The notes under the pieces: model-generated
Database searches by the model: none
Seen by the model: only the letters and a program-made list of their open reading frames with translations
Told to the model about the DNA's origin: nothing
Shown here: one piece after another, positions 42,776 to 55,814 of the stretch
Numbering within the stretch: the stretch's first letter is position 1
Layout of the letters: each line of letters opens with the position of its first letter
Source: an uncultured Rhodobacteraceae bacterium
GTDB taxonomy: Bacteria; Pseudomonadota; Alphaproteobacteria; Rhodobacterales; Rhodobacteraceae
Length of the DNA: 64,000 nucleotides
Assembly (NCBI GenBank): GCA_947497065.1
Contig: CANMEQ010000001.1
Span: 198,208-262,207 of the forward strand
Direction of reading: 5' to 3'
Translations under genes and position numbers: made by a program

Positions 42776-42856
42776 GGGGCTGCTCTTGTTTGTTTGGTTG
42801 GTTAGGCCACGGAAGTTTTGTAGGGTCAACCGCAACAACGTGCAAAGGATGTGCAG

Positions 42857-43717
42857 ATGAAGTGGCAAGGTCGCCGTGGGAGCCGTAATATTGAAGACAG
42901 ACGCCAGAGCGCTGGGTCGTCCGCTGGGCGCAAGGTTGGCGGGATTGGCGGGGTCGCCGGTGTTTTGGTTCTATTGGTGGGCTGGTATTTCGGGATCGAT
43001 ACATCGGGGTTCGTGGATTTGGGCGGTAGTGGCACGCAAGAGCAGGTGAGCAACGAGATCACGGCGCAAGATCAAGAGATGGCGCAATTTGTGTCGGTGA
43101 CCTTGGCGGATACAGAAGAGGTTTGGGCCGAGATTTTCCTGCAGCAGGTGGGGCGGGCCTATGATGCGCCGACGTTGGTTTTGTTTAAGGGGGCGACGCA
43201 ATCGCCCTGCGGTGGGGCGTCGGCGGCATCGGGGCCGTTTTACTGCCCCGCCGATGAGAAGGCCTATTTGGATACGGATTTCTTTGTGACCTTGGAAAAC
43301 CGGCTGGGCGCGGGAGGCGATTTTGCCGCCGCCTATGTTGTGGCCCATGAAGTGGCGCACCATGTGCAAAACGAGCTGGGCATTCTGGGGCAGGCAAACC
43401 GCATTCGCCAACAGGTGAGTGAAGCGGAGAGCAATCAGATTTCTGTGCGGATTGAATTGCAGGCCGATTGTTTCTCGGGCGTGTGGGCGCGCTATGCGCA
43501 AGAGCGGTTCAACAGTTTGGAGCGCGGTGACATTGCCGAAGCGATGAATGCGGCCGCCCAGATCGGCGATGATACTTTGCAGCGCAATGCGGGGCGCACG
43601 GTTCAGCCGCACACCTTTACCCATGGGACTTCTGAACAGCGCCAAAGGTGGTTTGCGACCGGGTATGAGAGTGGGGAAATTGCGACCTGCGACACTTTTA
43701 GTACCAACACGCTCTAA
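42857..43717 (+). CDS. Neutral zinc metallopeptidase (YpfJ-like)
   Basis: MKWQGRRGSRNIEDRR, GPFYCPAD, AHEVAHHVQN (HExxH), ELQADCFSG, FTHGTSEQR. Confidence 0.92.
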   Translation: MKWQGRRGSRNIEDRRQSAGSSAGRKVGGIGGVAGVLVLLVGWYFGIDTSGFVDLGGSGTQEQVSNEITAQDQEMAQFVSVTLADTEEVWAEIFLQQVGRAYDAPTLVLFKGATQSPCGGASAASGPFYCPADEKAYLDTDFFVTLENRLGAGGDFAAAYVVAHEVAHHVQNELGILGQANRIRQQVSEAESNQISVRIELQADCFSGVWARYAQERFNSLERGDIAEAMNAAAQIGDDTLQRNAGRTVQPHTFTHGTSEQRQRWFATGYESGEIATCDTFSTNTL

Positions 43718-43802
43718 AGACTTCATTTCTGCCGTTGACGCCAGTTTAGAGGGCGGTTATTCCACGCCCATTCCAGGCAGCCAGATGCTGCCCGACATAC
43801 TT

Positions 43803-43888
43803 GCCGGTGTGGCGGAATGGTAGACGCAGGGGATTCAAAATCCCCCGATGGTGACATCGTGCCGGTTCGAGTCCGGCCACCGGTACCA
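43803..43888 (+). tRNA. tRNA-Leu (anticodon CAA)
   Basis: Acceptor GCCGGTG/CACCGGT, D-arm GGCGGAATGGTAGACGC, anticodon arm GGGGA-TTCAAAA-TCCCC, long variable arm, GGTTCGAGTCC T-loop, encoded CCA. Confidence 0.97.
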
Positions 43889-44839
43889 ATATCTCATAAC
43901 AGACAGCTCAGGTGAGGTATGCGCGCGAAAGCGTGTGTTTGACGGGTTTGCTCCGTTGCGGATCAAGTGAGCTTCACATCTTTCAGAATATCGCTGGGTG
44001 GCTAGGGGCTGCAGGTTTGCGCCGTTGCACAGGTCGCCTGCTGGTGAGGGTGACGTGTGAGAGATTTGCTGGTGGATTTTGTGTTTAGCAGAACATTCGG
44101 TGCGCATGGCTCTTGGGTGTGGTCGAATGTACCGCGAAGCATCGCTGGTGGGGGCGGTCCGCGGTGCAGTTTCGGGTCGAGGTTTTAGGTCTTTGAGCGA
44201 ATCTGATTCGGATTCTTTACCTAACGTCAGTTTGTTGGTTTCCCATGGGTAAACAAAGGGTAGGCACTGGGCGCATTGTTTTTAAAATGACGGGCGAGAA
44301 TGGCCGGTTTTGAGGGTTCAACATAAAATTTCGCGAGGCGAGTTCACATTTTTGCCCCAAATGAAGGAGCCGGAAAGGTGTGGGGTTGGTGGGATAAAAA
44401 ATTCAATTTGCGTAAAAATTAATCAAAAGGATCGCTTTCAAAGGGCTTTAGTTGCTGTTTGGTAAACGATCAGCCGAAAAAGGGCGGTGTGGGGACAGTG
44501 TGACTTGCAACTTGGGGGTGAGTGCGTTGCAAGCGCTGTAACGTTAATCGCGGTTTCGTTCTTTTTTTTGCCTTTGTTAGGGGGGCGTTAGTCTGTATTA
44601 AGAGTGCAGAGCCGTACATGGCGAACCGGAAATCTGGGGTCCGGGCGGGTTGATATGACCTGCAAATAAAAAGTGGTGTCTGCGCGATTGGGTAATTCTT
44701 GATCTTCAATGCGGATGGTTAATTGGCCGCCTTCGGGCGGTTCACGTTGGTTTGGTGTGCCGAGCGCAGCTGGATCTTCGGGGGTGTAATTTTTTGTGTC
44801 GGCGACTTCGCTGGCAGTGAGAGTAGTTAGGATAGCGCA

Positions 44840-47800
44840 ATGTCAGATCGTGATAGAAACGACTGTGATCATTTGGACGGATACGTTGAGGGTGATGATG
44901 GTGCGAACACCATCGATTCTTCTTACACTGGGGACCGAGACGGAGATCGCATTGATGCGAACGACGCAATTCTACCAGGCGAGCAATCCAATGATGATAT
45001 CGTCTTGGCCGGTGGCGGTGACGACATCGTAAAGTCCGGAAGCGGCGACGATGAAGTTTACGGTGGTGACGATAACGACATGATCTTCGCAGCATCTGGT
45101 GATGACGTTGTTTACGGCGGTTCTGGCGATGACAAAGTCGAAGCAAGTTCTGGCGAAGATGTTGTGTTTGGCGGCGACGGCGATGATGACATCTGGGCCG
45201 GCAAAGATAACGACACTGTTTCCGCGGGCGCAGGCAATGACACAGTTGTTGGTGGCGACGGCGAAGACTTGATTGCTGGCGGGTCCGGCAATGACACGAT
45301 CGATGCTGGCAGCGAGAACGACGAAGTCTATGGCGGCGGCGGTGCTGACTCTATTGAGGGTGGTACGGGCAACGACACGCTGATCGGTGGCAACACTGAG
45401 TTTGACGGCACGCTTGATTTTGACGACCTGTCCACTGGCGAATTGGTCGATGGTCAGTTCGTTGCAAACGGTGTGACGATCACGTCGTCTGATCCTGAGC
45501 ACCCTGTGATGGTGTTTGACACGAACAACCCAACTGGTGGCGACAACGATCTGGCGACTAACAACCTGAACAACGTTCTGATCCTGTCCGAAGACCGCGA
45601 TTCTTCTGACCCGGATGATAACGCGTCTGGTGGTACATTTAACATCGTGTTCGATGGGCCTGCGACAGTGACATCACTGACGATTTTGGATGCCGATCAC
45701 GGTGCATGGGTGAAATACTACGACGTTAACGGCAACCTGCTGCAGCAGATTGACGTGCACACGGCCAACAATGGCCAAGAAGTGATCAGCACAAACCTGA
45801 CAAACGTTGGGTCTATCGAAGTGATCCTCGGTGCATCTGGTGCGATCGACAACCTGACATATTCTATCGACGCTGATGACCTGGATGGGAACGACACCAT
45901 CGATGGTGAAGAGGGCGACGATTACATCGAAGGCAATGCCGGCAACGACAGCCTTGATGGCGGCGAAGGCAACGATGAGATCTTCGGCGGCACAGGCGAT
46001 GACCGTATCTTCGGCAACGACGGTAACGACACGCAGTTTGGCGGCGAAGGCAACGATGTTCTTGGCGGCGCTGATTTCGGCGACGATACGTATTTTGGTG
46101 GCGCTGGCGACGATATGGTCGAAGCGTCTTTCGGCGATGACCTGATCTTTGGTGGTGAAGGCAACGACGACCTGTGGGCGTCTTCCGACAACGATGAAGT
46201 CTTCGGCGGTGACGGCGATGACAACGTTTATGGTGGTCAGGGGACTGACACTGTATCTGGCGACGACGGCAACGACACATTGTCTGGCGGTTCTGGCGCG
46301 GACACTGTGTTTGGTGGTGCTGGCGACGACGTCATTGACGGTGACCTGCTGTACAAAGATGACAACGGGGCTGCTGGCAACGATCAGTTGTTTGGTGGCG
46401 ACGATGCCGATACGATCATTGCGAACGCAGGTGACACCGTGGACGGTGGCGCTGGCGGCAATGACCACGATATTCTTGATCTGACAGGCGAAGGCCCGTT
46501 CTTCTTGGCCGGTCCTGATGGCACAGGCAGCCCAGTTGCAGACAGCAACGGCAATGGTCTCGACGGGACGGTTATTTTTGTTGACGAAGATGGTGAGCCA
46601 ACGGGCGAAACACTGTCCTTCACCGAGATCGAGCAGATCATCGGCGACGAAGTGAACCGTGGCCCAGAAGCGGGTAACGACACTGCGTCAACCGACGAAG
46701 ATACTCCTGTCACGATCAGCGTTTTGGACAACGACAGCGACCCAGACGGCGATACGCTGACAATCACTGAAGCGTCTGTTTCTGCCGATCAGGGCACAGT
46801 TGAAATCGTCAACGGTGAGCTGGTGTTTACGCCTGCTGAAAACTTCAACGGCGAAGCAACAATCACATACACTGTTTCCGACGGGAACGGCGGCGAAGAC
46901 ACAGCGACAGTTACTGTTGATGTGGCACCTGTGAACGATGCACCTGATGCGGTTGATGACGCTGATACAACAGATGAAGACACACCTATCACTGTTGATC
47001 TGCTGGCAAATGACACAGATGTTGACGGCGATGACCTGACTGTTGTTTCCGCGAGTGTTCCTGCGTCGCAGGGTAGCTTGGTTGATAATGGCGACGGGAC
47101 TGTCACCTTTACACCAGCTCCAAACTTCAACGGTGAAGCGACAATCACGTACACCATCGAAGACGAAGATGGCCTGCAGGACACAGCGACACATGTCATC
47201 ACAGTTGAACCTGTGAATGACGATCCGATCGCATGCCCAGACCACTATTTCGTCAACGAAGACGAAACGACTGGCGATCTGGACGGCAATGTCATCACGA
47301 ACCCAAGCGACAATGGCGCGGGTCTGGACATCGATCCGGACGGTGACACGCTGACAGTTGTGGCCATTGATGGCGACGATACAGCTGTGGGCACGGTTGT
47401 GACCGGGTCCAATGGCGGTGAGTTTGTTCTGAACGCTGATGGATCTTTCGACTTCTCTGCGAACGGTGATTTCGAAGAGCTGGGCGTTGGTGAAACAGCT
47501 GACACGCAGATCACATACACTGTATCTGACGGGAACGGCGGCGAAGCGACAACAACGCTGACCATCACAATCAACGGTCAGAACGACGGCCCGGTTGCGA
47601 CAGACAATGATTACGTCGAAAGTGCGGACGATTCTGCGACAGATATCGACGGAAACATCCTGCGCGATGACACCGGCGATGGCGCTGATTTCGATGTGGA
47701 CGGTGATTTGATCCGCGTTGTGTCCATCACCAATGGCACTGACACCGATGCGCCGAATGATCCGTTCGGGAACACCGGCTCTCCTGCGACTGTTGCAGGT

Positions 47801-50800
47801 GATAACGGCGGCATCATCACGATCTACAACGGTGGGAACGTACAGTTCGATCCGAATGGTGAGTTCGATGATCTGGCCGAGGGTGAAACAGCAACGACAT
47901 CTGTGACTTACACCATTGAAGACGAAAATGGTGCGCAAGATACGGCTGTTGTGACATTCACAGTGACCGGTACAAACGACGCGCCAGTGGCCGTTTTGGA
48001 CACCGACACAACGGACGAAGACACAGCCATCACGCTCGACAATGTTCTGGGCAACGATGAAGACATCGATGGTGATACGCTGACTGTATCCGAAGTGAAC
48101 GGCGACCCAGCAAACGTTGGCGAACCGATCGCAGGTGACAACGGTGGTCTGATCACGATCAACGAAGATGGTACTGCGTCCTTCGATCCAAACGGTGAGT
48201 TCGAAGCGCTCGGCGATGGTGAAACGGCTGAGACAGAAGTGACTTACACAGTCACTGACCCAAGCGGTGCAACAAGCACAACAACGGTTACGGTCACTGT
48301 AACCGGTGTGAATGATGCGCCAAATGCGGTCGATAGCTCTTATGTTGTTGCGCAAGATGAAGCGGCTGGTGATGTGGATGCGAATGCACTCACAGATGAC
48401 ACTGGCGAAGGCGTGGACAGCGATCCTGAGGGCGACGACCTGACAGTTGTGGCCGTTGAGGGTGACACTGGAAACGTTGGCGGTGTTGTGGCTGGCGACA
48501 ATGGTGGCTTGTTCACAATCAATGCTGACGGGTCTGTCGACTTTGATGCGAATGACGAGTTCGATGGCCTAGGCGAGGGCGAAACAGCCACGACCACGGT
48601 GTCTTACACCATCGCTGACGAAGACGGTCTGGAAGACACGGCGACTGTGACGTTCACTGTGACAGGGACAAACGACGGTCCTGTGGCTGTTGAAGACACA
48701 GACGAGACCGATCAGGATACGGCGATTGTTCTGGACAATGTTCTGGGCAACGACAGCGACCCTGATGGCGATACGCTGACAGTGGCGTCTGTTGATGGCG
48801 ATGCGGCGAATGTTGGTACACCTATCGCAGGTGACAACGGTGGTCTGATCACGATCAACGCAGACGGCACAGCCTCCTTCGATCCGAACGGCGACTTTGA
48901 CGATCTGGGCACAGGTGACACCGAAGAAACAGCGGTTACCTACACCATCACAGACGGCAACGGCGGCACTGACACAACGACTGTGACGGTCACTGTGACA
49001 GGCACGAACGACGCGCCTGAGGCGACAAACAGCTCTTACGTTGTGGCGCAGGACGAAGCCTTTGGTGACGAAGACGCGAATGCGATCACAGACGACACAG
49101 GCGACGGTGTTGACAGCGATGTTGACGGCGATCCGCTGACAGTTGCGGCTGTTGACGGTGCTGCGGCGAACGTTGGTCAGCCGGTGGCTGGTGACAACGG
49201 TGGTCTGTTCACAATTGCGGAAGACGGCACGGTCGACTTCTCTGCGAACGGTGAGTTTGATGATCTGGGTGAGGGCGAAACAGCCTCCACAACAGTGACT
49301 TACACCATCACCGATCCAGAAGGTGGCACCGACACAGCGACTGTTACCTTTACTGTGACAGGTACGAACGACGGCCCAGTGGCTGTTGAAGACACTGATG
49401 CGACCGATCAGGATACTGCGATTGTTCTGGACAATGTTCTGGGCAACGACAGCGACCCTGATGGCGATACGCTGACAGTGGCGTCTGTTGATGGCGATGC
49501 GGCGAATGTTGGTACACCTATCGCAGGTGACAACGGTGGTCTGATCACGATCAACGCAGACGGCACAGCCTCCTTCGATCCGAACGGCGACTTTGACGAT
49601 CTGGGCACAGGTGACACCGAAGAAACAGCGGTTACCTACACGATCACAGACGGCAACGGCGGCACTGACACAACGACTGTGACGGTCACTGTGACAGGCA
49701 CGAACGACGCGCCTGAGGCGACAAACAGCTCTTACGTTGTGGCGCAGGACGAAGCCTTTGGTGATGTGGACGCGAATGCGATCACAGACGACACAGGCGA
49801 CGGTGTCGACAGCGATGTTGACGGCGATCCGCTGACAGTTGCGGCTGTTGACGGTGCTGCGGCGAACGTTGGTCAGCCGGTGGCTGGCGACAACGGTGGT
49901 CTGTTCACAATTGCAGAAGACGGCACGGTCGACTTCTCTGCGAACGGTGAGTTTGATGATCTGGGTGAGGGCGAAACAGCCTCCACAACAGTGACTTACA
50001 CAATCACCGATCCAGAAGGTGGCACCGACACGGCGACTGTGACCTTCACTGTGACTGGCACAAACGACGGCCCAGTGGCTGTTGAAGATACCTTCACAAC
50101 GGATGAAGACACAGTGTCTGAGCTTGGCAACGTTCTGGACAACGACAGCGACCCAGACAGCGATCCGCTGACTGTTGCTGAAGTGAACGGCGACCCTGCG
50201 AATGTTGGTCAACCGGTTGCTGGTTCTGAGGGTGGCTTGGTCACCATCAACCCAGACGGCACGATTAGCTTTGACCCGAATGGTGAGTTCGACGAACTTT
50301 CCCCAGGTGAAAGCGTTGAGACGACTGTTACGTACACTGTAACTGACCCATCCGGTGCTGAGGCGACTGAAACTGTGACCATCACAGTGAATGGCGTGAA
50401 CGATGGCCCAGAAGCGACAGACAACGCCTATGTTGTGTCGTTGACTGAAACAGCTGGCGACGTGGACGGAAACGTTATCACTGAAGACACTGGCGACGGT
50501 GTTGATAGTGATCCGGAAGACGACGATCTGACTGTTGTTGCTGTGGACGGCGATGCTGCGAATGTTGGCAATGTTGTTGCTGGCGACAACGGCGGGACGT
50601 TCACAATCAATGACGACGGTACAGTCGACTTTGATGCGGGCGACGACTTTGACGATCTTGGTCTTGGCGAAACGCGCGACACGTCTGTCACGTACACAAT
50701 CGCTGATGAAAACGGTGCAACGGATACGGCGACAGCCACATTCACAGTCACTGGCATCAACGACGGTACAGTGCAGGGCACAGCCGGCAACGATGTGATC

Positions 50801-53782
50801 AATCCAGACATCCCATATGTGGATGCCGACGGTGATATTGTTGACGCTGGCGACGGCATCCTGCCGGGTGACGAAGACACAGACAATGATGTGATCGAAG
50901 GCTTCGGCGGCGATGACAGCATTGATGCAGGTGCTGGCGATGACGTGGTGTTTGGTGGTGCGGATGACGACACGATCGATGGCAACATCGGCGATGACGA
51001 GTTGTTCGGTGGCCAAGGCGATGATGACATCGAAGGCGGCGAAGGTGATGATGTGGTTGACGGCGGTGCCGGTGACGATGTTCTGAACGGCGGCGACGGT
51101 GATGACACTGTGGTTGGCGGCGCAGGCAACGACACCATTGATGGCAACGACGGTGACGATGAACTGCGTGGCGGTTCTGGCGACGATGTTATTAATGGGT
51201 CTGAGGGCGAAGACACATTGTTTGGTGGCACTGACGCCGACGGTATTGACCTTGGCGGCGATGACGTCCTGTTTGGCGGTGCCGACGATGACACTGTCAT
51301 CGGTGGCGCTGGCGAAGACATTGTATCTGGCGACGAAGGCAACGATGAGCTTCATGGCGGTCTTGGCGATGACACCTTGTTGGGTGGCGACGGCAACGAC
51401 GTGATCGAAGATGTCGAAGGCAATGACAGCGTTGAAGGCGGCGACGGTAACGATATTATCAACGTTGGTTCTACGCAGGGTGATGAAAACCCTGATGTTG
51501 GTTACCCTGAGCAGCCATCTGCGACGGTCCCGGACCTTGTGTTCCCTGGCTATGACGCGGACGAAGATCCAAACGATGACAAAGACTTTGTCGACGGTGG
51601 TGCGGGTGATGATATCATCAACACAGGCGACGACGATGACACCATCATCGGTGGGTCCGGTAACGACACAATCAACGCAGGCTTCGACGATGATACCGTC
51701 GATGGCGGCACCGGTGATGACTTTATCGAAGGTGGCGAAGGCAACGATACGGTTGAAGGCGGTGACGGCGACGACACTATCTTCGGTGGGATCGATGACC
51801 CATTGGCTGACGCGGTAAGCTTCCCTGATGATGAGCCTGACGCGCTTGGGTTCCAGGATCTTGTGCCTGAAAACAACGGTGATGTGCTGTTTGGCGGTGC
51901 TGGCAACGATACGATCTTTGGCCAAGACGACGACGACAGCCTGTTTGGTGGCGACGGCGACGATGTTCTTGACGGTGGTATCGACGACGACATGATCCAA
52001 GGCGGCGACGGCAACGATGTTGTTATTGGTGGTCAAGGCGATGACAGCCTGACCGGCAACGACGGCAACGACACTGTTGTCGGTGGTGACGGCGCGGATA
52101 TCGTACGTGGCGGTACTGGCGACGACGATCTGACCGGTGACGATGGCATGGACATGCTGTTCGGTGGTGCTGGAAACGACACCATTGATGGCGGTGACGA
52201 CGACGATAAGATCGAAGGTGGATCTGGCGATGATACGATCATCGGTGGCGCCGGTAACGACGATCTTTGGGGCGCATCTGGTGATGACTCTGTCGACGGT
52301 GGCACGGGTGATGACGTTATCAACACAGCCGAAGGCAACGATGTTGTCGAAGGTGGTGACGGCGATGACGTTATCGACACGGCCAACGACGAAACACCTG
52401 AAATTGTAGTGCTACCTGATGGGATTTTGCTGACAGGTGAAAACCTGCCAGATGTTGGTTATCCAGGTGCTTATGAAGCGGATGCCGATCCGTTTGATGA
52501 CCTCGACACAGTCTTTGGCGGAGCTGGCAACGACAGCATCACCACAGGCGATGACGATGACACCATCTTTGGTGGCACCGGTGACGATAATATCGACGCT
52601 GGCATCGACGATGACTTTGTTGAAGGTGGCGAAGGCAACGACACGATCCTTGGGTCCGAAGGTAACGACGAAATCTACGGTGAAGACGGTGACGACGTTA
52701 TCTATGGTGGCCTAGCACCTGGTGATGGTGATTTCGCAGACCTGCCAAACGATTTGGATGGTGATGGCGACAGCAACGATCCGGGTGAAGACCTTGTCAC
52801 CGACAACAACAACGACACGTTGTTCGGCGGCGCGGGTAACGACTTCATCACAGGTAACGACGACGATGACACATTGTACGGCGGTACAGGGAATGACGTT
52901 CTAGATGGCGGCATCGATGATGACACGATCTACGGCGATGAGGGTGAAGACACGATCATTGGTGGTCAGGGCACGGACGAATTGTTCGGCGGCTTGGGCT
53001 CCGACACATTCCTTGGCGGTGACGGCGGTGATGTGGTTGTTGGTGGCGAAGACCCCGATGATACCGATGTTGATGTTCTGGATCTGACTGGATCTGGCGT
53101 TGATTTCATCACTTACGTTGATGGTGACCCAGAGGCAGGTGAAGTGACCTTCCTTGACGGCTCCACCATGACCTTCTCTGAGATCGAGAATGTGATCCCG
53201 TGCTTTACGCCGGGCACCACAATCGCGACACCGAAGGGGGAGCGTTTGGTTGAAGAACTGCGCGAAGGTGATCGGATCATCACACGGGACAACGGTATCC
53301 AAGAAATCCGTTGGGTTGGCCGCAAAGAGATGTCTGGCAAGGCGCTGGTCGCCAATTCGCATCTCAAGCCGATCCTGATCCGTGCGGGTGCATTGGGCAA
53401 CGGTCTGCCTGAGCGCGATATGCTCGTGTCTCCGAACCACCGTTGTTTGGTCGCCTCCGAGAAGACACAGCTCTACTTTGAAGAGCGTGAAGTTCTCGCA
53501 GCGGCGAAACACCTGGTCGGGTCCGAGGGTATTCATGCGGTTGATGTGATGGGCACGTCCTACATCCACTTCATGTTCGACCGCCACGAAGTGGTTCTGT
53601 CGAACGGCGCATGGACGGAAAGCTTCCAGCCAGGTGATTACAGCCTGAAAGGGATCGGGAATGCACAGCGCAACGAAATCTTTGAGCTGTTCCCAGAGCT
53701 ACAGGAACGTCAGGGGCTGGAAGGCTACCAGTCAGCCCGTCGCGCCCTGAAGAAGCACGAAGCCAAGTTGCTGATCAAGTAA
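44840..53782 (+). CDS. Giant (2980 aa) acidic RTX / Ig-like-repeat protein with C-terminal Hint (BIL) domain; probable surface adhesin
   Basis: Dozens of GGxGxDxL/I nonapeptides; 12 N-D-x-P-initiated Ig-like repeats; C-terminal CFTPGT...SPNHR...YIHFMFDRHE...NGAWTESF. AGGA SD; no N-terminal signal peptide. Confidence 0.92.
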   Translation: MSDRDRNDCDHLDGYVEGDDGANTIDSSYTGDRDGDRIDANDAILPGEQSNDDIVLAGGGDDIVKSGSGDDEVYGGDDNDMIFAASGDDVVYGGSGDDKVEASSGEDVVFGGDGDDDIWAGKDNDTVSAGAGNDTVVGGDGEDLIAGGSGNDTIDAGSENDEVYGGGGADSIEGGTGNDTLIGGNTEFDGTLDFDDLSTGELVDGQFVANGVTITSSDPEHPVMVFDTNNPTGGDNDLATNNLNNVLILSEDRDSSDPDDNASGGTFNIVFDGPATVTSLTILDADHGAWVKYYDVNGNLLQQIDVHTANNGQEVISTNLTNVGSIEVILGASGAIDNLTYSIDADDLDGNDTIDGEEGDDYIEGNAGNDSLDGGEGNDEIFGGTGDDRIFGNDGNDTQFGGEGNDVLGGADFGDDTYFGGAGDDMVEASFGDDLIFGGEGNDDLWASSDNDEVFGGDGDDNVYGGQGTDTVSGDDGNDTLSGGSGADTVFGGAGDDVIDGDLLYKDDNGAAGNDQLFGGDDADTIIANAGDTVDGGAGGNDHDILDLTGEGPFFLAGPDGTGSPVADSNGNGLDGTVIFVDEDGEPTGETLSFTEIEQIIGDEVNRGPEAGNDTASTDEDTPVTISVLDNDSDPDGDTLTITEASVSADQGTVEIVNGELVFTPAENFNGEATITYTVSDGNGGEDTATVTVDVAPVNDAPDAVDDADTTDEDTPITVDLLANDTDVDGDDLTVVSASVPASQGSLVDNGDGTVTFTPAPNFNGEATITYTIEDEDGLQDTATHVITVEPVNDDPIACPDHYFVNEDETTGDLDGNVITNPSDNGAGLDIDPDGDTLTVVAIDGDDTAVGTVVTGSNGGEFVLNADGSFDFSANGDFEELGVGETADTQITYTVSDGNGGEATTTLTITINGQNDGPVATDNDYVESADDSATDIDGNILRDDTGDGADFDVDGDLIRVVSITNGTDTDAPNDPFGNTGSPATVAGDNGGIITIYNGGNVQFDPNGEFDDLAEGETATTSVTYTIEDENGAQDTAVVTFTVTGTNDAPVAVLDTDTTDEDTAITLDNVLGNDEDIDGDTLTVSEVNGDPANVGEPIAGDNGGLITINEDGTASFDPNGEFEALGDGETAETEVTYTVTDPSGATSTTTVTVTVTGVNDAPNAVDSSYVVAQDEAAGDVDANALTDDTGEGVDSDPEGDDLTVVAVEGDTGNVGGVVAGDNGGLFTINADGSVDFDANDEFDGLGEGETATTTVSYTIADEDGLEDTATVTFTVTGTNDGPVAVEDTDETDQDTAIVLDNVLGNDSDPDGDTLTVASVDGDAANVGTPIAGDNGGLITINADGTASFDPNGDFDDLGTGDTEETAVTYTITDGNGGTDTTTVTVTVTGTNDAPEATNSSYVVAQDEAFGDEDANAITDDTGDGVDSDVDGDPLTVAAVDGAAANVGQPVAGDNGGLFTIAEDGTVDFSANGEFDDLGEGETASTTVTYTITDPEGGTDTATVTFTVTGTNDGPVAVEDTDATDQDTAIVLDNVLGNDSDPDGDTLTVASVDGDAANVGTPIAGDNGGLITINADGTASFDPNGDFDDLGTGDTEETAVTYTITDGNGGTDTTTVTVTVTGTNDAPEATNSSYVVAQDEAFGDVDANAITDDTGDGVDSDVDGDPLTVAAVDGAAANVGQPVAGDNGGLFTIAEDGTVDFSANGEFDDLGEGETASTTVTYTITDPEGGTDTATVTFTVTGTNDGPVAVEDTFTTDEDTVSELGNVLDNDSDPDSDPLTVAEVNGDPANVGQPVAGSEGGLVTINPDGTISFDPNGEFDELSPGESVETTVTYTVTDPSGAEATETVTITVNGVNDGPEATDNAYVVSLTETAGDVDGNVITEDTGDGVDSDPEDDDLTVVAVDGDAANVGNVVAGDNGGTFTINDDGTVDFDAGDDFDDLGLGETRDTSVTYTIADENGATDTATATFTVTGINDGTVQGTAGNDVINPDIPYVDADGDIVDAGDGILPGDEDTDNDVIEGFGGDDSIDAGAGDDVVFGGADDDTIDGNIGDDELFGGQGDDDIEGGEGDDVVDGGAGDDVLNGGDGDDTVVGGAGNDTIDGNDGDDELRGGSGDDVINGSEGEDTLFGGTDADGIDLGGDDVLFGGADDDTVIGGAGEDIVSGDEGNDELHGGLGDDTLLGGDGNDVIEDVEGNDSVEGGDGNDIINVGSTQGDENPDVGYPEQPSATVPDLVFPGYDADEDPNDDKDFVDGGAGDDIINTGDDDDTIIGGSGNDTINAGFDDDTVDGGTGDDFIEGGEGNDTVEGGDGDDTIFGGIDDPLADAVSFPDDEPDALGFQDLVPENNGDVLFGGAGNDTIFGQDDDDSLFGGDGDDVLDGGIDDDMIQGGDGNDVVIGGQGDDSLTGNDGNDTVVGGDGADIVRGGTGDDDLTGDDGMDMLFGGAGNDTIDGGDDDDKIEGGSGDDTIIGGAGNDDLWGASGDDSVDGGTGDDVINTAEGNDVVEGGDGDDVIDTANDETPEIVVLPDGILLTGENLPDVGYPGAYEADADPFDDLDTVFGGAGNDSITTGDDDDTIFGGTGDDNIDAGIDDDFVEGGEGNDTILGSEGNDEIYGEDGDDVIYGGLAPGDGDFADLPNDLDGDGDSNDPGEDLVTDNNNDTLFGGAGNDFITGNDDDDTLYGGTGNDVLDGGIDDDTIYGDEGEDTIIGGQGTDELFGGLGSDTFLGGDGGDVVVGGEDPDDTDVDVLDLTGSGVDFITYVDGDPEAGEVTFLDGSTMTFSEIENVIPCFTPGTTIATPKGERLVEELREGDRIITRDNGIQEIRWVGRKEMSGKALVANSHLKPILIRAGALGNGLPERDMLVSPNHRCLVASEKTQLYFEEREVLAAAKHLVGSEGIHAVDVMGTSYIHFMFDRHEVVLSNGAWTESFQPGDYSLKGIGNAQRNEIFELFPELQERQGLEGYQSARRALKKHEAKLLIK
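46655..50758 (+). repeat. Array of 12 Ig/cadherin-like repeats (about 95-131 aa each)
   Basis: Each unit begins N(D/R)(A/G/D)P.A and ends YT(V/I).D..G..D/S..T...TV.G/P. Confidence 0.9.
48671..50062 (+). repeat. Near-identical tandem duplication, 2 x 696 bp (48671-49366 and 49367-50062)
   Basis: Long exact DNA matches at a constant 696-bp offset. The ORF track also shows identical antisense peptides at 48712 and 49408. Confidence 0.93.
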
Positions 53783-53790
53783 ACGACTAT

Positions 53791-53866
53791 GAACCAGCCC
53801 GAGCGAATCGGGCTGGTTTCACGAAAAAGAAGCCCGGACGCGAAACAGCGTTCGGGCATTTTTTAT
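53791..53866 (+). terminator. Tandem hairpins / Rho-independent terminator after the giant gene
   Basis: AACCAGCCCGA/TCGGGCTGGTT hairpin (53792-53818), then GCCCGGACGC/GCGTTCGGGC hairpin (53832-53857) followed by ATTTTTTAT. Confidence 0.82.
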
Positions 53867-54070
53867 GCAGTTTTATTCATATTTTTTGAAATTGTTGCGG
53901 GTTTCGATTTAATGGCGCGCGACGCCGGCTTTTGTTAATCGCCCTTTCTATTTTAACGTGCGTGCGCGTTTTTTCCCCGCTAATGAAAGAAAGACTTCAT
54001 TTACAAATACCAAAGTATGGTCCGGCTTGGGCCTGTTTTAAGTTAGCTAACGCACACGAGGATGCACCCC

Positions 54071-55237
54071 ATGGCTACGATTACCGGAACTTCAAATTCA
54101 GATACGCTGGTCGGTGGTACTGATGATGATGTGATCAGTGGCTTGAACGGGCAAGACAGCCTGTCCGGTGGTGACGGCAATGACACGCTGTATGGTGGCG
54201 AAGGGAACGACACGGTTGAAGGGGGTGACGGGGACGACTCTATCGAGGGTGGGTCCGGTCAGGATATCCTCTATGGCGGTGACGGGGATGATACGATTTC
54301 CGACGATGAGGGAACGCAAAACCTCGGCCAAGACACGGTGTACGGCGGTGCGGGCAACGATACGATTTCGCTGAGCGGGAATGGCGATACTGCCTATGGC
54401 GGTACAGGAGACGATCTGTTCAACATCCTGACGTTTTCCAACTTTAATGGTCTGACGATTGATGGCGATGAAGACAGTGATGGCAATGACAACGATGTCA
54501 TCAATTTTGCGGCCTTGTATCAAAAATTTCCTGATCTTCAGATTATTTACGAAAGCCAAAGTGCCGATGGTGAAGACGGGCGTATCCTGATCAAGACGGC
54601 CCCGAACGGGCGAGAGCTTGGTCGTTTGAACTATTCGAACATTGAAAACATCATTTGTTTTACGCCGGGCACCTTGATTGCCACACCGATGGGCGAAGTG
54701 CCGGTTGAAAGTTTGCGCGAAGGGGACAAGGTGTTCACCCGCGATAATGGCATTCAGGAATTGGCTTGGATTGGCCGCCGTAACTTGAGCCGGTTTGACC
54801 TTGAAGCCACGCCGGAATTCCAACCTGTTTTGGTTAAGGCGGGATCTTTGGGCGCTGGGTTGCCGGAGCGGGATTTGCTGCTGTCGCCAAACCACCGGTT
54901 GTTGATGACGGGCGAGCGGGCATCGCTTTATTTTGAAGAGACAGAAGTACTGTCTGCGGCGAAACACTTGGTCGATATGGATGGTGTGGCGCAGGTTCAG
55001 ACGCAATCGGTGAGCTATATTCACCTGCTGTTTGAACGCCACGAGGTGATTTTGTCCAACGGTACGTGGACGGAAACGTTCCAGCCGAGCGATCATTCGT
55101 TGAAGGGCGTTTTGGATGAGCAGCGCCGTGAAATCCTTTCGTTGTTTCCAGAGCTTTCTACGCTTGGGAGCAAAGACGGATGGCCTGCGGCACGCAAAGT
55201 GCTGAAGAGCCATGAGGCCAAACTGCTTACGGTTTAA
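54071..55237 (+). CDS. Short RTX-repeat protein with C-terminal Hint (BIL) domain
   Basis: MATITGTSNSDTLVGG.., about 10 GGxGxD repeats, CFTPGT at 54656, SPNHR, YIHLLFERHE, NGTWTETF; GAGGA SD. Confidence 0.92.
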   Translation: MATITGTSNSDTLVGGTDDDVISGLNGQDSLSGGDGNDTLYGGEGNDTVEGGDGDDSIEGGSGQDILYGGDGDDTISDDEGTQNLGQDTVYGGAGNDTISLSGNGDTAYGGTGDDLFNILTFSNFNGLTIDGDEDSDGNDNDVINFAALYQKFPDLQIIYESQSADGEDGRILIKTAPNGRELGRLNYSNIENIICFTPGTLIATPMGEVPVESLREGDKVFTRDNGIQELAWIGRRNLSRFDLEATPEFQPVLVKAGSLGAGLPERDLLLSPNHRLLMTGERASLYFEETEVLSAAKHLVDMDGVAQVQTQSVSYIHLLFERHEVILSNGTWTETFQPSDHSLKGVLDEQRREILSLFPELSTLGSKDGWPAARKVLKSHEAKLLTV

Positions 55238-55814
55238 GGGTTTTCCTGTAGGAATCCCAGTCTTCGGGCGTGTCTAGATCTAGGCGCGCCCGTTGTCCGT
55301 TGAGGGGGAAGAACGTTGTTTCGGCGGCGTGGTTTTGGCAGATTTCGAAGGCCCCGCGATCACCGCTAAGTTGGTCGAACTGGGCGAACAGGTGGCGTGC
55401 AAAATAGATGGGGTGACCAGGTTTGCCGTCGTCCGTGGTGGCGCGCAGGAGTGTAGGGCTGTCGCTTTGGGCCAGCCCGTGAATTTGGGCGAGATCGTTT
55501 TGGGTGATGTCTGGCATATCGGCGGGCAGGATGATGACGCCAGTTGCGGTTTCGGGCAGGGCCTGAATACCGGCGCGCAGGCTGAAGGCCATGCCGCGAT
55601 CTGCATTGGGCACCGCTATGGAGTGTGCGCTTTCTGGCAGGCATGAGCGGCGGGTGTGCGTGAGGCTGGGCAGGGTGACGAAGGTCGGGGCCACGGCCAC
55701 GGCGGACGTTGCCAATCGTTGGAGGATGGGCACGCCGTCTATGGGCTCAAGGAGTTTATCTGCGCCCCGCATCCGCGAAGATCGCCCTGCAGCGAGGAGG
55801 AGAATGGGGATCAT
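55227..55814 (-). CDS. MocA/MobA-like nucleotidyltransferase (NTP_transf_3)
   Basis: LLLAAGRSSRMRGADKLL, GMAFSL, PADMP, GHPIYF, GDRGA, DLDTPED. Confidence 0.88.
   Translation of the reverse strand: MIPILLLAAGRSSRMRGADKLLEPIDGVPILQRLATSAVAVAPTFVTLPSLTHTRRSCLPESAHSIAVPNADRGMAFSLRAGIQALPETATGVIILPADMPDITQNDLAQIHGLAQSDSPTLLRATTDDGKPGHPIYFARHLFAQFDQLSGDRGAFEICQNHAAETTFFPLNGQRARLDLDTPEDWDSYRKTLKP

What the first reader, a model, noticed from the sequence alone, without database searches (positions are those of the whole stretch)
44840..53782. Giant self-processing adhesin candidate: RTX / beta-domain / RTX / 12 Ig repeats / RTX / Hint
Seen: 2980 aa, extremely Asp/Gly/Thr-rich, no signal peptide, a modular extender stalk and a Hint domain starting at Cys2788 (53201). 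No T1SS genes (ABC, MFP, TolC), LapG/LapD-type release genes or integrase are in the window. Established: RTX plus Ig-repeat proteins (LapA or MpIBP type) are Ca2+-rigidified, T1SS-secreted adhesins, and alphaproteobacterial B-type BIL Hint domains autocleave. Inference: a surface or biofilm adhesin whose maturation or release is set by its own Hint domain rather than by a periplasmic protease.
Basis: partly seen in the sequence, partly recalled or inferred. Interest (0 to 1): 0.72.

Follow-up and report, generated by a model that had tools for sequence, protein, structure and literature searches.

The report
Giant RTX protein ending in Hint
This is a real 2,980-residue calcium-binding, repeat-rich surface-type protein of an Octadecabacter-like marine bacterium that ends in a self-cleaving intein-like (Hint) domain, but it is one ordinary member of a very large, already catalogued Rhodobacterales family whose export route and role are still untested.

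Summary
ORF 44840-53782 (+) encodes 2,980 aa. Its layout is RTX, a lectin-like beta-sandwich, RTX, 12 tandem-95/Ig repeats, a long RTX block, then a Pfam Hint_2 domain starting at Cys2788 (nt 53201) and a conserved 47-aa basic tail.

It is not unusual. At least 737 protein clusters of 1.6-5.2 kaa share this C-terminus, in Octadecabacter, Yoonia, Loktanella, Nereida and Rhodobacter capsulatus. Hint_2 is found in 34 of 41 sampled genera of the family, and this genome has 13 copies, one immediately downstream.

The catalytic Cys1 and the S-x-x-H motif are conserved and the modelled fold is HINT, so self-cleavage at Pro2787|Cys2788 is likely.

The LapA/MpIBP comparison fails on several defining features. 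There is no N-terminal retention domain, no LapG in the genome and no linked T1SS here or in 83 related loci. The C-terminus is also unlike the ...DDFLLF ends of this genome's other RTX proteins. T1SS machines do exist elsewhere in the genome.

Export by T1SS, an adhesin role, and the idea that the Hint sets "release" all remain inference.

Verdict: new member of a known kind (B-type BIL / Hint_2 RTX proteins), modest interest.

The parts
44840..53782 (+). Whole gene, 2,980 aa, RTX / Ig-repeat / Hint_2 protein
44840..45394 (+). RTX block 1 (aa 1-185). Acidic N-terminus, no signal peptide, no BapA/LapA-type prefix domain
45395..45883 (+). Beta-sandwich domain (aa 186-348) with a lectin/CBM/discoidin-like fold. 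No Pfam model. Belongs to a large unnamed family
45884..46504 (+). RTX block 2 (aa 349-555)
46505..46654 (+). Internal cap/linker (aa 556-605; the LDLTG-type start of the cap, HDILDLTG, lies at aa 543-550 at the end of RTX block 2; ...SFTEIEQII at 593-601). It resembles the segment just before the Hint but is not followed by a Cys
46655..50755 (+). 12 tandem-95 / Big_9 / Cadherin-like Ig repeats (aa 606-1972). The last ten form five 696-nt double units (112+120 aa), and the middle two are 98-100% identical in DNA
50756..53044 (+). RTX block 3 (aa 1973-2735), about 52 nonapeptide motifs
53045..53200 (+). Pre-Hint cap (aa 2736-2787; VDVLDLTG...TFSEIENVIP). Its last residue, Pro2787, is the predicted new C-terminus after cleavage
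53201..53638 (+). Hint_2 / B-type BIL core (aa 2788-2933). Has Cys2788 and Ser2864-x-x-His2867, and no terminal His-Asn
53639..53779 (+). Conserved basic helical tail (aa 2934-2980; ...EIFELFPEL...ARRALKKHEAKLLIK). Cys1-to-stop is 191-195 aa in 119 of 120 giant homologs
53832..53857 (+). Terminator-like hairpin (10 bp stem, 8 GC pairs, T-run) 50 nt after the stop
54062..55237 (+). Downstream paralog, 391 aa, RTX + Hint_2 + tail. A same-strand downstream Hint_2 gene occurs in 25 of 80 related species loci

Best explanation
The gene encodes an extracellular, Ca2+-folded fibrous protein of the Rhodobacterales 'RTX + Ig repeats + Hint_2' family.

Shown here:
- The domain layout.
- A lectin/CBM-like beta-sandwich near the N-terminus.
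- A repeat stalk whose length varies between species.
- A C-terminal 193-aa module (Hint_2 core plus a 47-aa basic helical tail) with the catalytic Cys1 and S-x-x-H intact and a HINT fold.

Inferred mechanism:
- The unfolded, very acidic chain leaves the cell C-terminus first through one of the genome's unlinked type I secretion systems.
- The RTX blocks fold on binding Ca2+ outside the cell.
- The Hint module makes an N-to-S acyl shift at Pro2787-Cys2788, and the thioester is resolved. This separates a 2,787-aa passenger ending ...EIENVIP from the 193-aa module.
- The conserved module, not the RTX part, is what all 13 paralogs of the genome share. It is therefore most likely a common export/processing cassette that is removed from diverse passengers.
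- The passenger then acts as a glycan-binding surface or matrix protein. A role as a cell-anchored adhesin is not shown.
For: - Domain calls come from Pfam and NCBIfam.
- Cys1, SPNHR, the YIH..FD.HEVVLSNGAWTESFQPG stretch and the tail are 80-100% conserved in 120 giant homologs, and the module length is fixed at 191-195 aa.
- The AF2 model of aa 2752-2980 has pLDDT above 90 over the Hint core. Foldseek hits are BIL domains, inteins and Hedgehog-C (6y75, 2lwy, 1at0).
- B-type BILs keep all intein motifs except the C-terminal one and cleave their N-terminal flank (review PMC7765530). RTX proteins with Hedgehog/intein homology were already flagged as likely autoprocessing (PMC3034196).
- The genome has 13 Hint_2 proteins with unrelated N-terminal parts and no signal peptides. 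Only 3 of them carry RTX repeats.
- Three T1SS ABC/MFP sets and three TolC-like genes are present in the genome.
- The beta-domain model (pLDDT 95.6) matches discoidin, fucose-binding, CBM6/CBM32 and gingipain adhesin domains.
- 36 of 150 representative proteins carrying that domain also end in Hint_2.
- The locus is syntenic across genera, with the MobA-like neighbour in 56 of 83 loci, so it is a vertically kept core gene.
Against: - No experiment or proteome for this protein or a close relative was found.
- The C-terminus is basic and strongly conserved. It is unlike the acidic-hydrophobic ...DDFLLF / ...SDFLLV ends of several of the genome's other RTX proteins, and unlike classical T1SS signals, which are described as unprocessed (PMC3034196).
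- No T1SS gene lies within 7 kb of the gene in any of 83 related loci.
- A Hint domain needs no Ca2+ and could fold and cleave in the cytoplasm, which would cut the passenger from a C-terminal signal before export.
- The tail is modelled with low confidence (pLDDT 45-85).
- Four paralogs lack Cys1 and His, and three of them keep a tail-like end. The module therefore has some role that does not need cleavage.
- No retention device is visible, so 'adhesin' is not established.
Confidence: 0.6

Rival explanations
1. Clip-and-link. The thioester at Cys2788 is resolved not by water but by a nucleophile: a lipid, an LPS or polysaccharide hydroxyl or amine, or a lysine of another protein. The passenger's C-terminus, the first part to leave a T1SS channel, would then become covalently tied to the cell surface or matrix. 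This would work like Hedgehog cholesteroylation, BIL-ubiquitin-like conjugation, or the Ca2+-triggered anhydride of the FrpC self-processing module. The conserved tail would recruit the acceptor, as the sterol-recognition region does in Hedgehog.
For: - The HINT fold includes hits to Hedgehog-C (1at0) and the Tetrahymena BUBL BIL2 domain (6y75).
- A conserved, roughly 47-aa helical extension follows the Hint core at the position where Hog proteins carry their adduct-recognition region.
- No other anchoring device is present: no BapA/LapA prefix and no LapG.
- There is a precedent for self-processing with covalent linkage in RTX proteins (PMC7078468).
Against: - This is pure analogy. No acceptor, no adduct and no dedicated residue was identified.
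- B-type BILs tested so far are reported to give cleavage products (PMC7765530, PMC7664689).
- The tail is poorly modelled.
Confidence: 0.13
2. Cleavage before export. The Hint folds and cuts in the cytoplasm. This exposes ...TFSEIENVIP-COOH and its cap as the real C-terminal T1SS signal, and the 193-aa module stays inside the cell as a licensing or timing device.
For: - The Hint needs no Ca2+.
- The cap before the Hint is conserved (LDLTG...F.EIENVIP) and acidic-hydrophobic, loosely like other RTX ends in the genome.
Against: - The same cap motif occurs internally (aa 543-601) and between RTX blocks of a paralog, so it is not specific to a terminus.
- Non-RTX paralogs have unrelated sequences before Cys1.
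- The tail is as strongly conserved as the core, and this model gives no reason for that.
Confidence: 0.1
3. The Hint module of this protein does not cleave in vivo. It serves only as a folded C-terminal export or recognition tag, or as a binding domain, and the protein stays full length.
For: - Four of the 13 paralogs have lost Cys1 and the block-B His, and three of them keep a tail-like end. A non-catalytic role for the module therefore exists.
- Hint modules of the giants are very strongly conserved across genera, with short branches.
Against: - The giant lineage keeps Cys1, S-x-x-H and every other motif at 95-100% in 120 homologs. This is hard to explain without catalysis.
- Published B-type BILs cleave (PMC7765530).
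Confidence: 0.1

Closest known systems
B-type bacterial intein-like (BIL) domains = Pfam Hint_2 (PF13403), as in RTX proteins of Rhodobacter sphaeroides and R. capsulatus (Amitai et al. 2003 and Dassa et al. 2004, cited through reviews PMC7765530 and PMC7664689; the original papers were not held)
   Same: - C-terminal Hint with Cys1 and block-B S/T-x-x-H, without the intein His-Asn end.
- Alphaproteobacterial host, with an RTX passenger.
- R. capsulatus orthologs of this very protein exist, 63% identical over the last 281 aa.
   Different: Nothing essential. This copy is longer than most (2,980 aa, 12 Ig repeats) and carries a lectin-like beta-sandwich. In vivo function is unknown for the whole family.
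LapA / MpIBP / BapA-type T1SS giant adhesins
   Same: Giant acidic protein, Ig-like extender repeats, RTX repeats, a putative sugar-binding module, no signal peptide.
   Different: - No N-terminal retention/prefix domain and no LapG in the genome.
- No linked T1SS.
- The ligand-binding-like domain is N-proximal rather than C-proximal.
- The extreme C-terminus is a Hint module rather than a secretion signal.
- A true BapA-prefix protein with its own OMP-ABC-MFP is at C1:19103-27748 of the same genome.
FrpC / ApxIVA self-processing module (Ca2+-dependent 'clip and link' of RTX proteins; PMC7078468, PMC5233953)
   Same: A T1SS-type RTX protein that cuts itself autocatalytically at one defined bond and generates an activated acyl group on the released fragment.
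   Different: The chemistry and fold are unrelated. FrpC uses an Asp-Pro anhydride in an internal, Ca2+-triggered module. This protein uses a Cys thioester in a C-terminal HINT fold. Linking is shown for FrpC and not for this protein.
Hedgehog C-terminal autoprocessing domain (Hint + sterol-recognition region)
   Same: A C-terminal Hint followed by a short extension. The N-terminal passenger is the functional secreted product. The fold matches (1at0).
   Different: Sequence identity is only 16% over the Foldseek alignment. No sterol and no known acceptor. Bacterial host.

Membership tests
Pfam Hint_2 / B-type BIL | Match to PF13403 above the curated cut-off | tested here: met
   193.2 bits against a cut-off of 28.4, aa 2787-2933, full profile 1-147; 199.7 bits in the genome scan
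Pfam Hint_2 / B-type BIL | N-terminal nucleophile (Cys/Ser) as the first residue of the domain | tested here: met
   Cys2788 in IPCFTPGT. At least 95% conserved across the 120 giant homologs (the CFxxG pattern is found in 119 of them), and present in 8-9 of 13 paralogs
Pfam Hint_2 / B-type BIL | Block B Thr/Ser-x-x-His | tested here: met
   Ser2864-Pro-Asn-His2867-Arg, conserved in at least 95% of 120 homologs
Pfam Hint_2 / B-type BIL | No intein-type C-terminal His-Asn plus downstream nucleophile | tested here: met
   The confidently modelled fold ends near aa 2930 in ...AWTESFQPGD. There is no His-Asn, and a 47-aa tail follows
Pfam Hint_2 / B-type BIL | HINT fold | tested here: met
   AF2 core pLDDT above 90. 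Foldseek hits 6y75, 2lwy, 6mwy and 1at0 with probability 1.00 and target TM 0.57-0.68
Pfam Hint_2 / B-type BIL | Autocatalytic cleavage of the N-terminal flank | not testable with these tools
   Needs expression and mass spectrometry. Literature precedent only (PMC7765530)
LapA/MpIBP/BapA-type T1SS adhesin | N-terminal retention / BapA-prefix-like domain | tested here: not met
   The first 187 aa give only RTX hits. A different protein of the genome does match BapA_N (PF22783 at 31.5 bits, NF033677 at 35.5 bits)
LapA/MpIBP/BapA-type T1SS adhesin | LapG-type periplasmic protease (Peptidase_C93) in the genome | tested here: not met
   No PF06035 match in the 99%-complete genome
LapA/MpIBP/BapA-type T1SS adhesin | LapD-type c-di-GMP receptor | not tested
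LapA/MpIBP/BapA-type T1SS adhesin | Dedicated T1SS genes next to the adhesin gene | tested here: not met
   None in the window. None within 7 kb in 83 related loci
LapA/MpIBP/BapA-type T1SS adhesin | Tandem Ig-like extender | tested here: met
   12 tandem-95/Big_9 repeats
RTX protein / T1SS substrate | Gly/Asp nonapeptide repeats | tested here: met
   31 HemolysinCabind stretches, E 4.9e-153
RTX protein / T1SS substrate | Unprocessed secretion signal in the last ~60 residues | tested here: inconclusive
   The last 47 aa are conserved, basic and helical. They differ from the ...DDFLLF-type ends of several of the genome's other RTX proteins
RTX protein / T1SS substrate | ABC, MFP and TolC-like components present in the genome | tested here: met
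   C7:106820-109863, C1:22996-27748 and C8:8138-13320, plus a TolC-like gene at C8:60287-61432
Hedgehog-type Hog domain | Hint followed by an adduct (sterol) recognition region that directs acyl transfer | tested here: inconclusive
   A conserved 47-aa helical tail exists, but at low model confidence and with no detectable similarity to a sterol-recognition region
FrpC/ApxIVA self-processing module | Internal Ca2+-dependent module cleaving an Asp-Pro bond | not tested
   Considered only as a functional analogue (PMC7078468). No model of that module was available to scan

The most novel reading that the evidence does not exclude
The 193-aa Hint_2-plus-tail cassette may be a bacterial Hedgehog-like transfer device. 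It is the first part of the chain to emerge from the T1SS. It would fold and use its thioester to ligate the passenger's C-terminus (...EIENVIP) covalently to an envelope or matrix acceptor chosen by the conserved tail. That would give Rhodobacterales a protease-free, LapG-independent way to anchor dozens of different passengers per genome.
Probability: 0.12. Interest if true: 0.75.

Novelty: new member of a known kind. Interest (0 to 1): 0.3.

Why it matters
Hint_2 proteins are among the most expanded unexplained families in roseobacters. There are 1-20 copies in 34 of 41 sampled genera, and the family is listed among functions enriched in fast-blooming marine bacteria (PMC12487129). No paper in the held library tests what the C-terminal Hint does in the cell, how these proteins leave it, or why the tail is so conserved. 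This particular gene adds no new principle. It is, however, a clean, syntenic, full-length example on which the family-wide question could be tested: is the module a secretion signal, a release device or a ligation device?

Tried and rejected
- Literature searches for any proteomic or genetic study of Hint-domain RTX proteins in roseobacters found nothing usable. This covered, and the supplements of two exoproteome/OMV papers. The two primary BIL papers are not held.
- PDB sequence searches with the Hint module and with the beta-domain gave only chance-level hits.
- Tandem Repeats Finder found nothing because the 696-nt period exceeds its limit. The repeat finder resolved the repeats.
- Rfam on the 1.1-kb upstream gap found only a tRNA and no riboswitch.
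- No RNA run of this strain exists. Metatranscriptome contigs match only short conserved Hint patches of relatives, so they say nothing about this gene.
- I asked whether the missing N-terminal domain of relatives is hidden upstream in another frame. It is not: tblastn and blastn show no remnant.
- Hint-less RTX proteins of the genome ending in ...ISFANIDHLTT were considered as support for the 'unmasked signal' idea. I dropped this because they are small proteins with N-terminal membrane helices.
- Long antisense ORFs inside the gene (for example 48569-52036, minus strand, 1,155 aa) are taken as by-products of the repeat composition. All family hits are on the plus strand.
Full report
OBSERVATION

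The ORF at 44840-53782 on the plus strand is open for 2,980 codons and is preceded by AGGA 7 nt upstream of the ATG. The protein is 18.6% Asp, 16.4% Gly and 10.7% Thr. Its first 2,787 residues hold 706 acidic and only 19 basic residues, while the last 193 hold 26 of each. The N-terminus (MSDRDRNDCDHLDG...) is not a signal peptide.

Pfam gives 31 RTX stretches, 12 Big_9/Cadherin_4 stretches and one full-length Hint_2 match at 2787-2933 (E 3.9e-57). NCBIfam tandem-95 repeats. All parts of the observation are confirmed.

ANATOMY

- RTX block 1 is aa 18-182.
- A 163-aa non-RTX domain is aa 186-348.
- RTX block 2 is aa 356-545.
- A cap ending ...SFTEIEQII is at aa 593-601.
- Twelve Ig-like repeats run aa 606-1972.
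- RTX block 3 is aa 1980-2716, with about 52 nonapeptides.
- A second cap is aa 2736-2787.
- The Hint core is aa 2788-2933.
- A 47-aa tail is aa 2934-2980.

The last ten Ig repeats form five 696-nt double units (112 + 120 aa). The two middle units are 98-100% identical at the DNA level, so the copy number may be recent or under-assembled.

A strong terminator-like hairpin lies 50 nt after the stop. A tRNA lies upstream at 43803-43885, followed by about 950 nt with no Rfam match.

THE HINT MODULE

In an alignment of the last 260 residues of 120 giant homologs, the following are 80-100% conserved:
- Cys1-Phe-Thr-Pro-Gly-Thr
- Ser-Pro-Asn-His-Arg (2864-2868)
- YIH..FD.HEVVLSNGAWTESFQPG
- FPEL
- LKKHEA.LL

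The distance from Cys1 to the stop is 191-195 aa in 119 of 120, and 193 aa in nearly all of 80 species loci.

An AlphaFold2 model of aa 2752-2980 has pLDDT above 90 over the core and 45-85 over the helical tail. Foldseek places the core with the Tetrahymena BUBL BIL2 domain, the Clostridium thermocellum BIL domain, several inteins and Hedgehog-C. There is no terminal His-Asn.

These are the features of B-type BIL domains. A review describes these domains as keeping all intein motifs except the C-terminal one and as cleaving their N-terminal flank (PMC7765530; see also PMC7664689). Self-cleavage at Pro2787|Cys2788 is therefore likely, but it is not shown for this protein.

HOW COMMON IT IS

A search with aa 2700-2980, restricted to proteins of 1.6-5.2 kaa, found 737 clusters. 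The listed ones nearly all have RTX + Big_9/Cadherin + RTX + Hint_2. They come from Octadecabacter (93% identity in O. temperatus), Yoonia, Loktanella, Pseudooctadecabacter, Nereida, Roseovarius and Rhodobacter capsulatus (63%). They are already named 'Hint domain-containing protein' or 'tandem-95 repeat protein'.

Hint_2 occurs in 34 of 41 genera sampled from the same family, at 1-20 copies. This genome has 13. The RTX review of 2010 already noted RTX proteins with Hedgehog/intein homology as likely autoprocessing (PMC3034196).

An earlier follow-up in this scan on a similar protein reached the same verdict (e1-4246346). I count that as agreement, not as evidence.

CONTEXT

The locus is syntenic with O. 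temperatus: ornithine cyclodeaminase, arginase, DsbB, Zn-peptidase, giant, small RTX+Hint_2, MobA-like. The MobA-like neighbour recurs in 56 of 83 related loci. The gene is therefore a vertically inherited chromosomal gene, not an island.

A same-strand Hint_2 gene directly downstream occurs in 25 of 80 species loci. That is about half of the giants, including R. capsulatus. In a tree of the modules, the giants' modules form one tight clade with very short branches, while the downstream partners lie outside it on longer branches. The pair is therefore old and is not being homogenised. The pairing is frequent but not obligatory.

SECRETION

The genome has three ABC/MFP sets. Two of them are complete OMP-ABC-MFP loci, each next to its own large substrate. 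One of those substrates carries a BapA prefix-like N-terminal domain.

The giant differs from that canonical adhesin on several points:
- It has no prefix domain.
- The genome has no LapG.
- No T1SS gene lies within 7 kb of the gene in any of 83 related loci.
- Its C-terminus is basic and conserved, whereas several of the genome's other RTX proteins end in ...DDFLLF...SDFLLV or ...DTFLF.

RTX content, extreme acidity and the lack of a signal peptide still make T1SS the most likely route. That remains inference, and the signal is undefined.

Only 3 of the 13 paralogs have RTX repeats. All share the module. Four have lost Cys1 and the His, and three of those four keep a tail-like end. This argues that the module has a role beyond cleavage, most simply export or recognition.

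THE BETA-DOMAIN

Residues 186-348 have no Pfam or NCBIfam family. They do match 1,548 representative clusters, often at the very N-terminus of the protein. Of the best 150, 36 end in Hint_2, and one is fused directly to it.

The model (pLDDT 95.6) is a beta-sandwich. It resembles discoidin lectins, fucose-binding modules, CBM6/CBM32, a pectate-lyase CBM and a gingipain adhesin domain, with modest TM-scores of 0.4-0.59. This fits a glycan-binding role but does not show one. Among the 120 giants, 39 carry this domain, almost always N-proximal.

Close Octadecabacter orthologs have an extra domain of about 158 aa (MSDYTIDWS...) before the first RTX block. That domain is absent here, with no remnant upstream.

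VERDICT

It over-reaches on LapA/MpIBP membership and on 'release'.

The protein is a new member of a known kind. The real open question belongs to the whole family: what the Hint-plus-tail cassette does in vivo. A Hedgehog-like ligation role cannot be excluded and would be interesting, but nothing here supports it beyond analogy.

Noticed in passing
window 48752-50143: Two consecutive 696-nt double Ig-repeat units are 98-100% identical in DNA. This is either a very recent duplication or a place where a short-read assembly may have collapsed or mis-counted copies. Orthologs differ widely in repeat number and length (1,986-2,494 aa in close Octadecabacter relatives).
   Followed up: partly
window 43886-45320: Octadecabacter orthologs begin with an extra N-terminal domain of about 158 aa (MSDYTIDWS...) that is missing here. 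DNA similarity to O. temperatus stops after the tRNA (43888) and resumes only at 45320. No remnant of the domain exists in any frame upstream.
   Followed up: yes
window 54062-55237 (+): A 391-aa RTX + Hint_2 + tail gene lies directly downstream, after a terminator. A same-strand downstream Hint_2 gene is present in 25 of 80 related species loci, and its Hint belongs to a different, faster-evolving clade than the giants' Hint.
   Followed up: yes
genome contigs C3:101147-101965, C2:578611-579282, C7:180994-182109, C2:246629-247393 (outside the window): Four of the 13 Hint_2 paralogs lack Cys1 and the block-B His, so they are presumably non-cleaving. Three of them still keep a tail-like C-terminus (C2:578611-579282 has no tail). 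A fifth paralog (C2:521673-522710) has its Cys displaced.
   Followed up: partly
genome contig C6:268935-271697, continuing into the ends of C16 and C1 (outside the window): A second large RTX + Hint_2 protein (at least 920 aa) is broken at a contig end. Matching RTX fragments sit at other contig ends, so the assembly breaks in RTX repeats.
   Followed up: no
genome contig C1:19103-27748 and C8:4033-13320 (outside the window): Two canonical T1SS loci, each next to a large substrate of 1,256 or 1,345 aa: C1 is ordered substrate-OMP-ABC-MFP and C8 substrate-ABC-MFP-OMP. The C1 substrate has a BapA prefix-like N-terminal domain. These show what a LapA/BapA-type adhesin locus looks like in this organism.
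   Followed up: partly
window 45395-45883: The beta-sandwich domain belongs to a large family (1,548 representative clusters) with no Pfam or NCBIfam model. Its conserved motif is MIFDT.NPTGGD.DL...SEDGDSSDPDDNA.GG, with probable Ca2+-binding acidic loops.
   Followed up: partly
window 43803-43885 (+): A tRNA gene (Rfam, 56 bits) lies between the Zn-peptidase gene (42851-43717, +) and the giant gene, followed by about 950 nt with no detectable RNA family or ORF match.
   Followed up: no
window 42851-43717 (+) vs 42971-43726 (-): Of two overlapping ORFs, the plus-strand one is the real gene (Zn_peptidase PF04228, E 3e-117). The minus-strand 251-aa ORF has no family.
   Followed up: yes
window 55227-55814 (-): The MobA-like NTP-transferase gene next to the Hint pair is a neighbour of the giant's orthologs in 56 of 83 loci across genera. 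This is probably plain synteny, and no functional link is evident.
   Followed up: no
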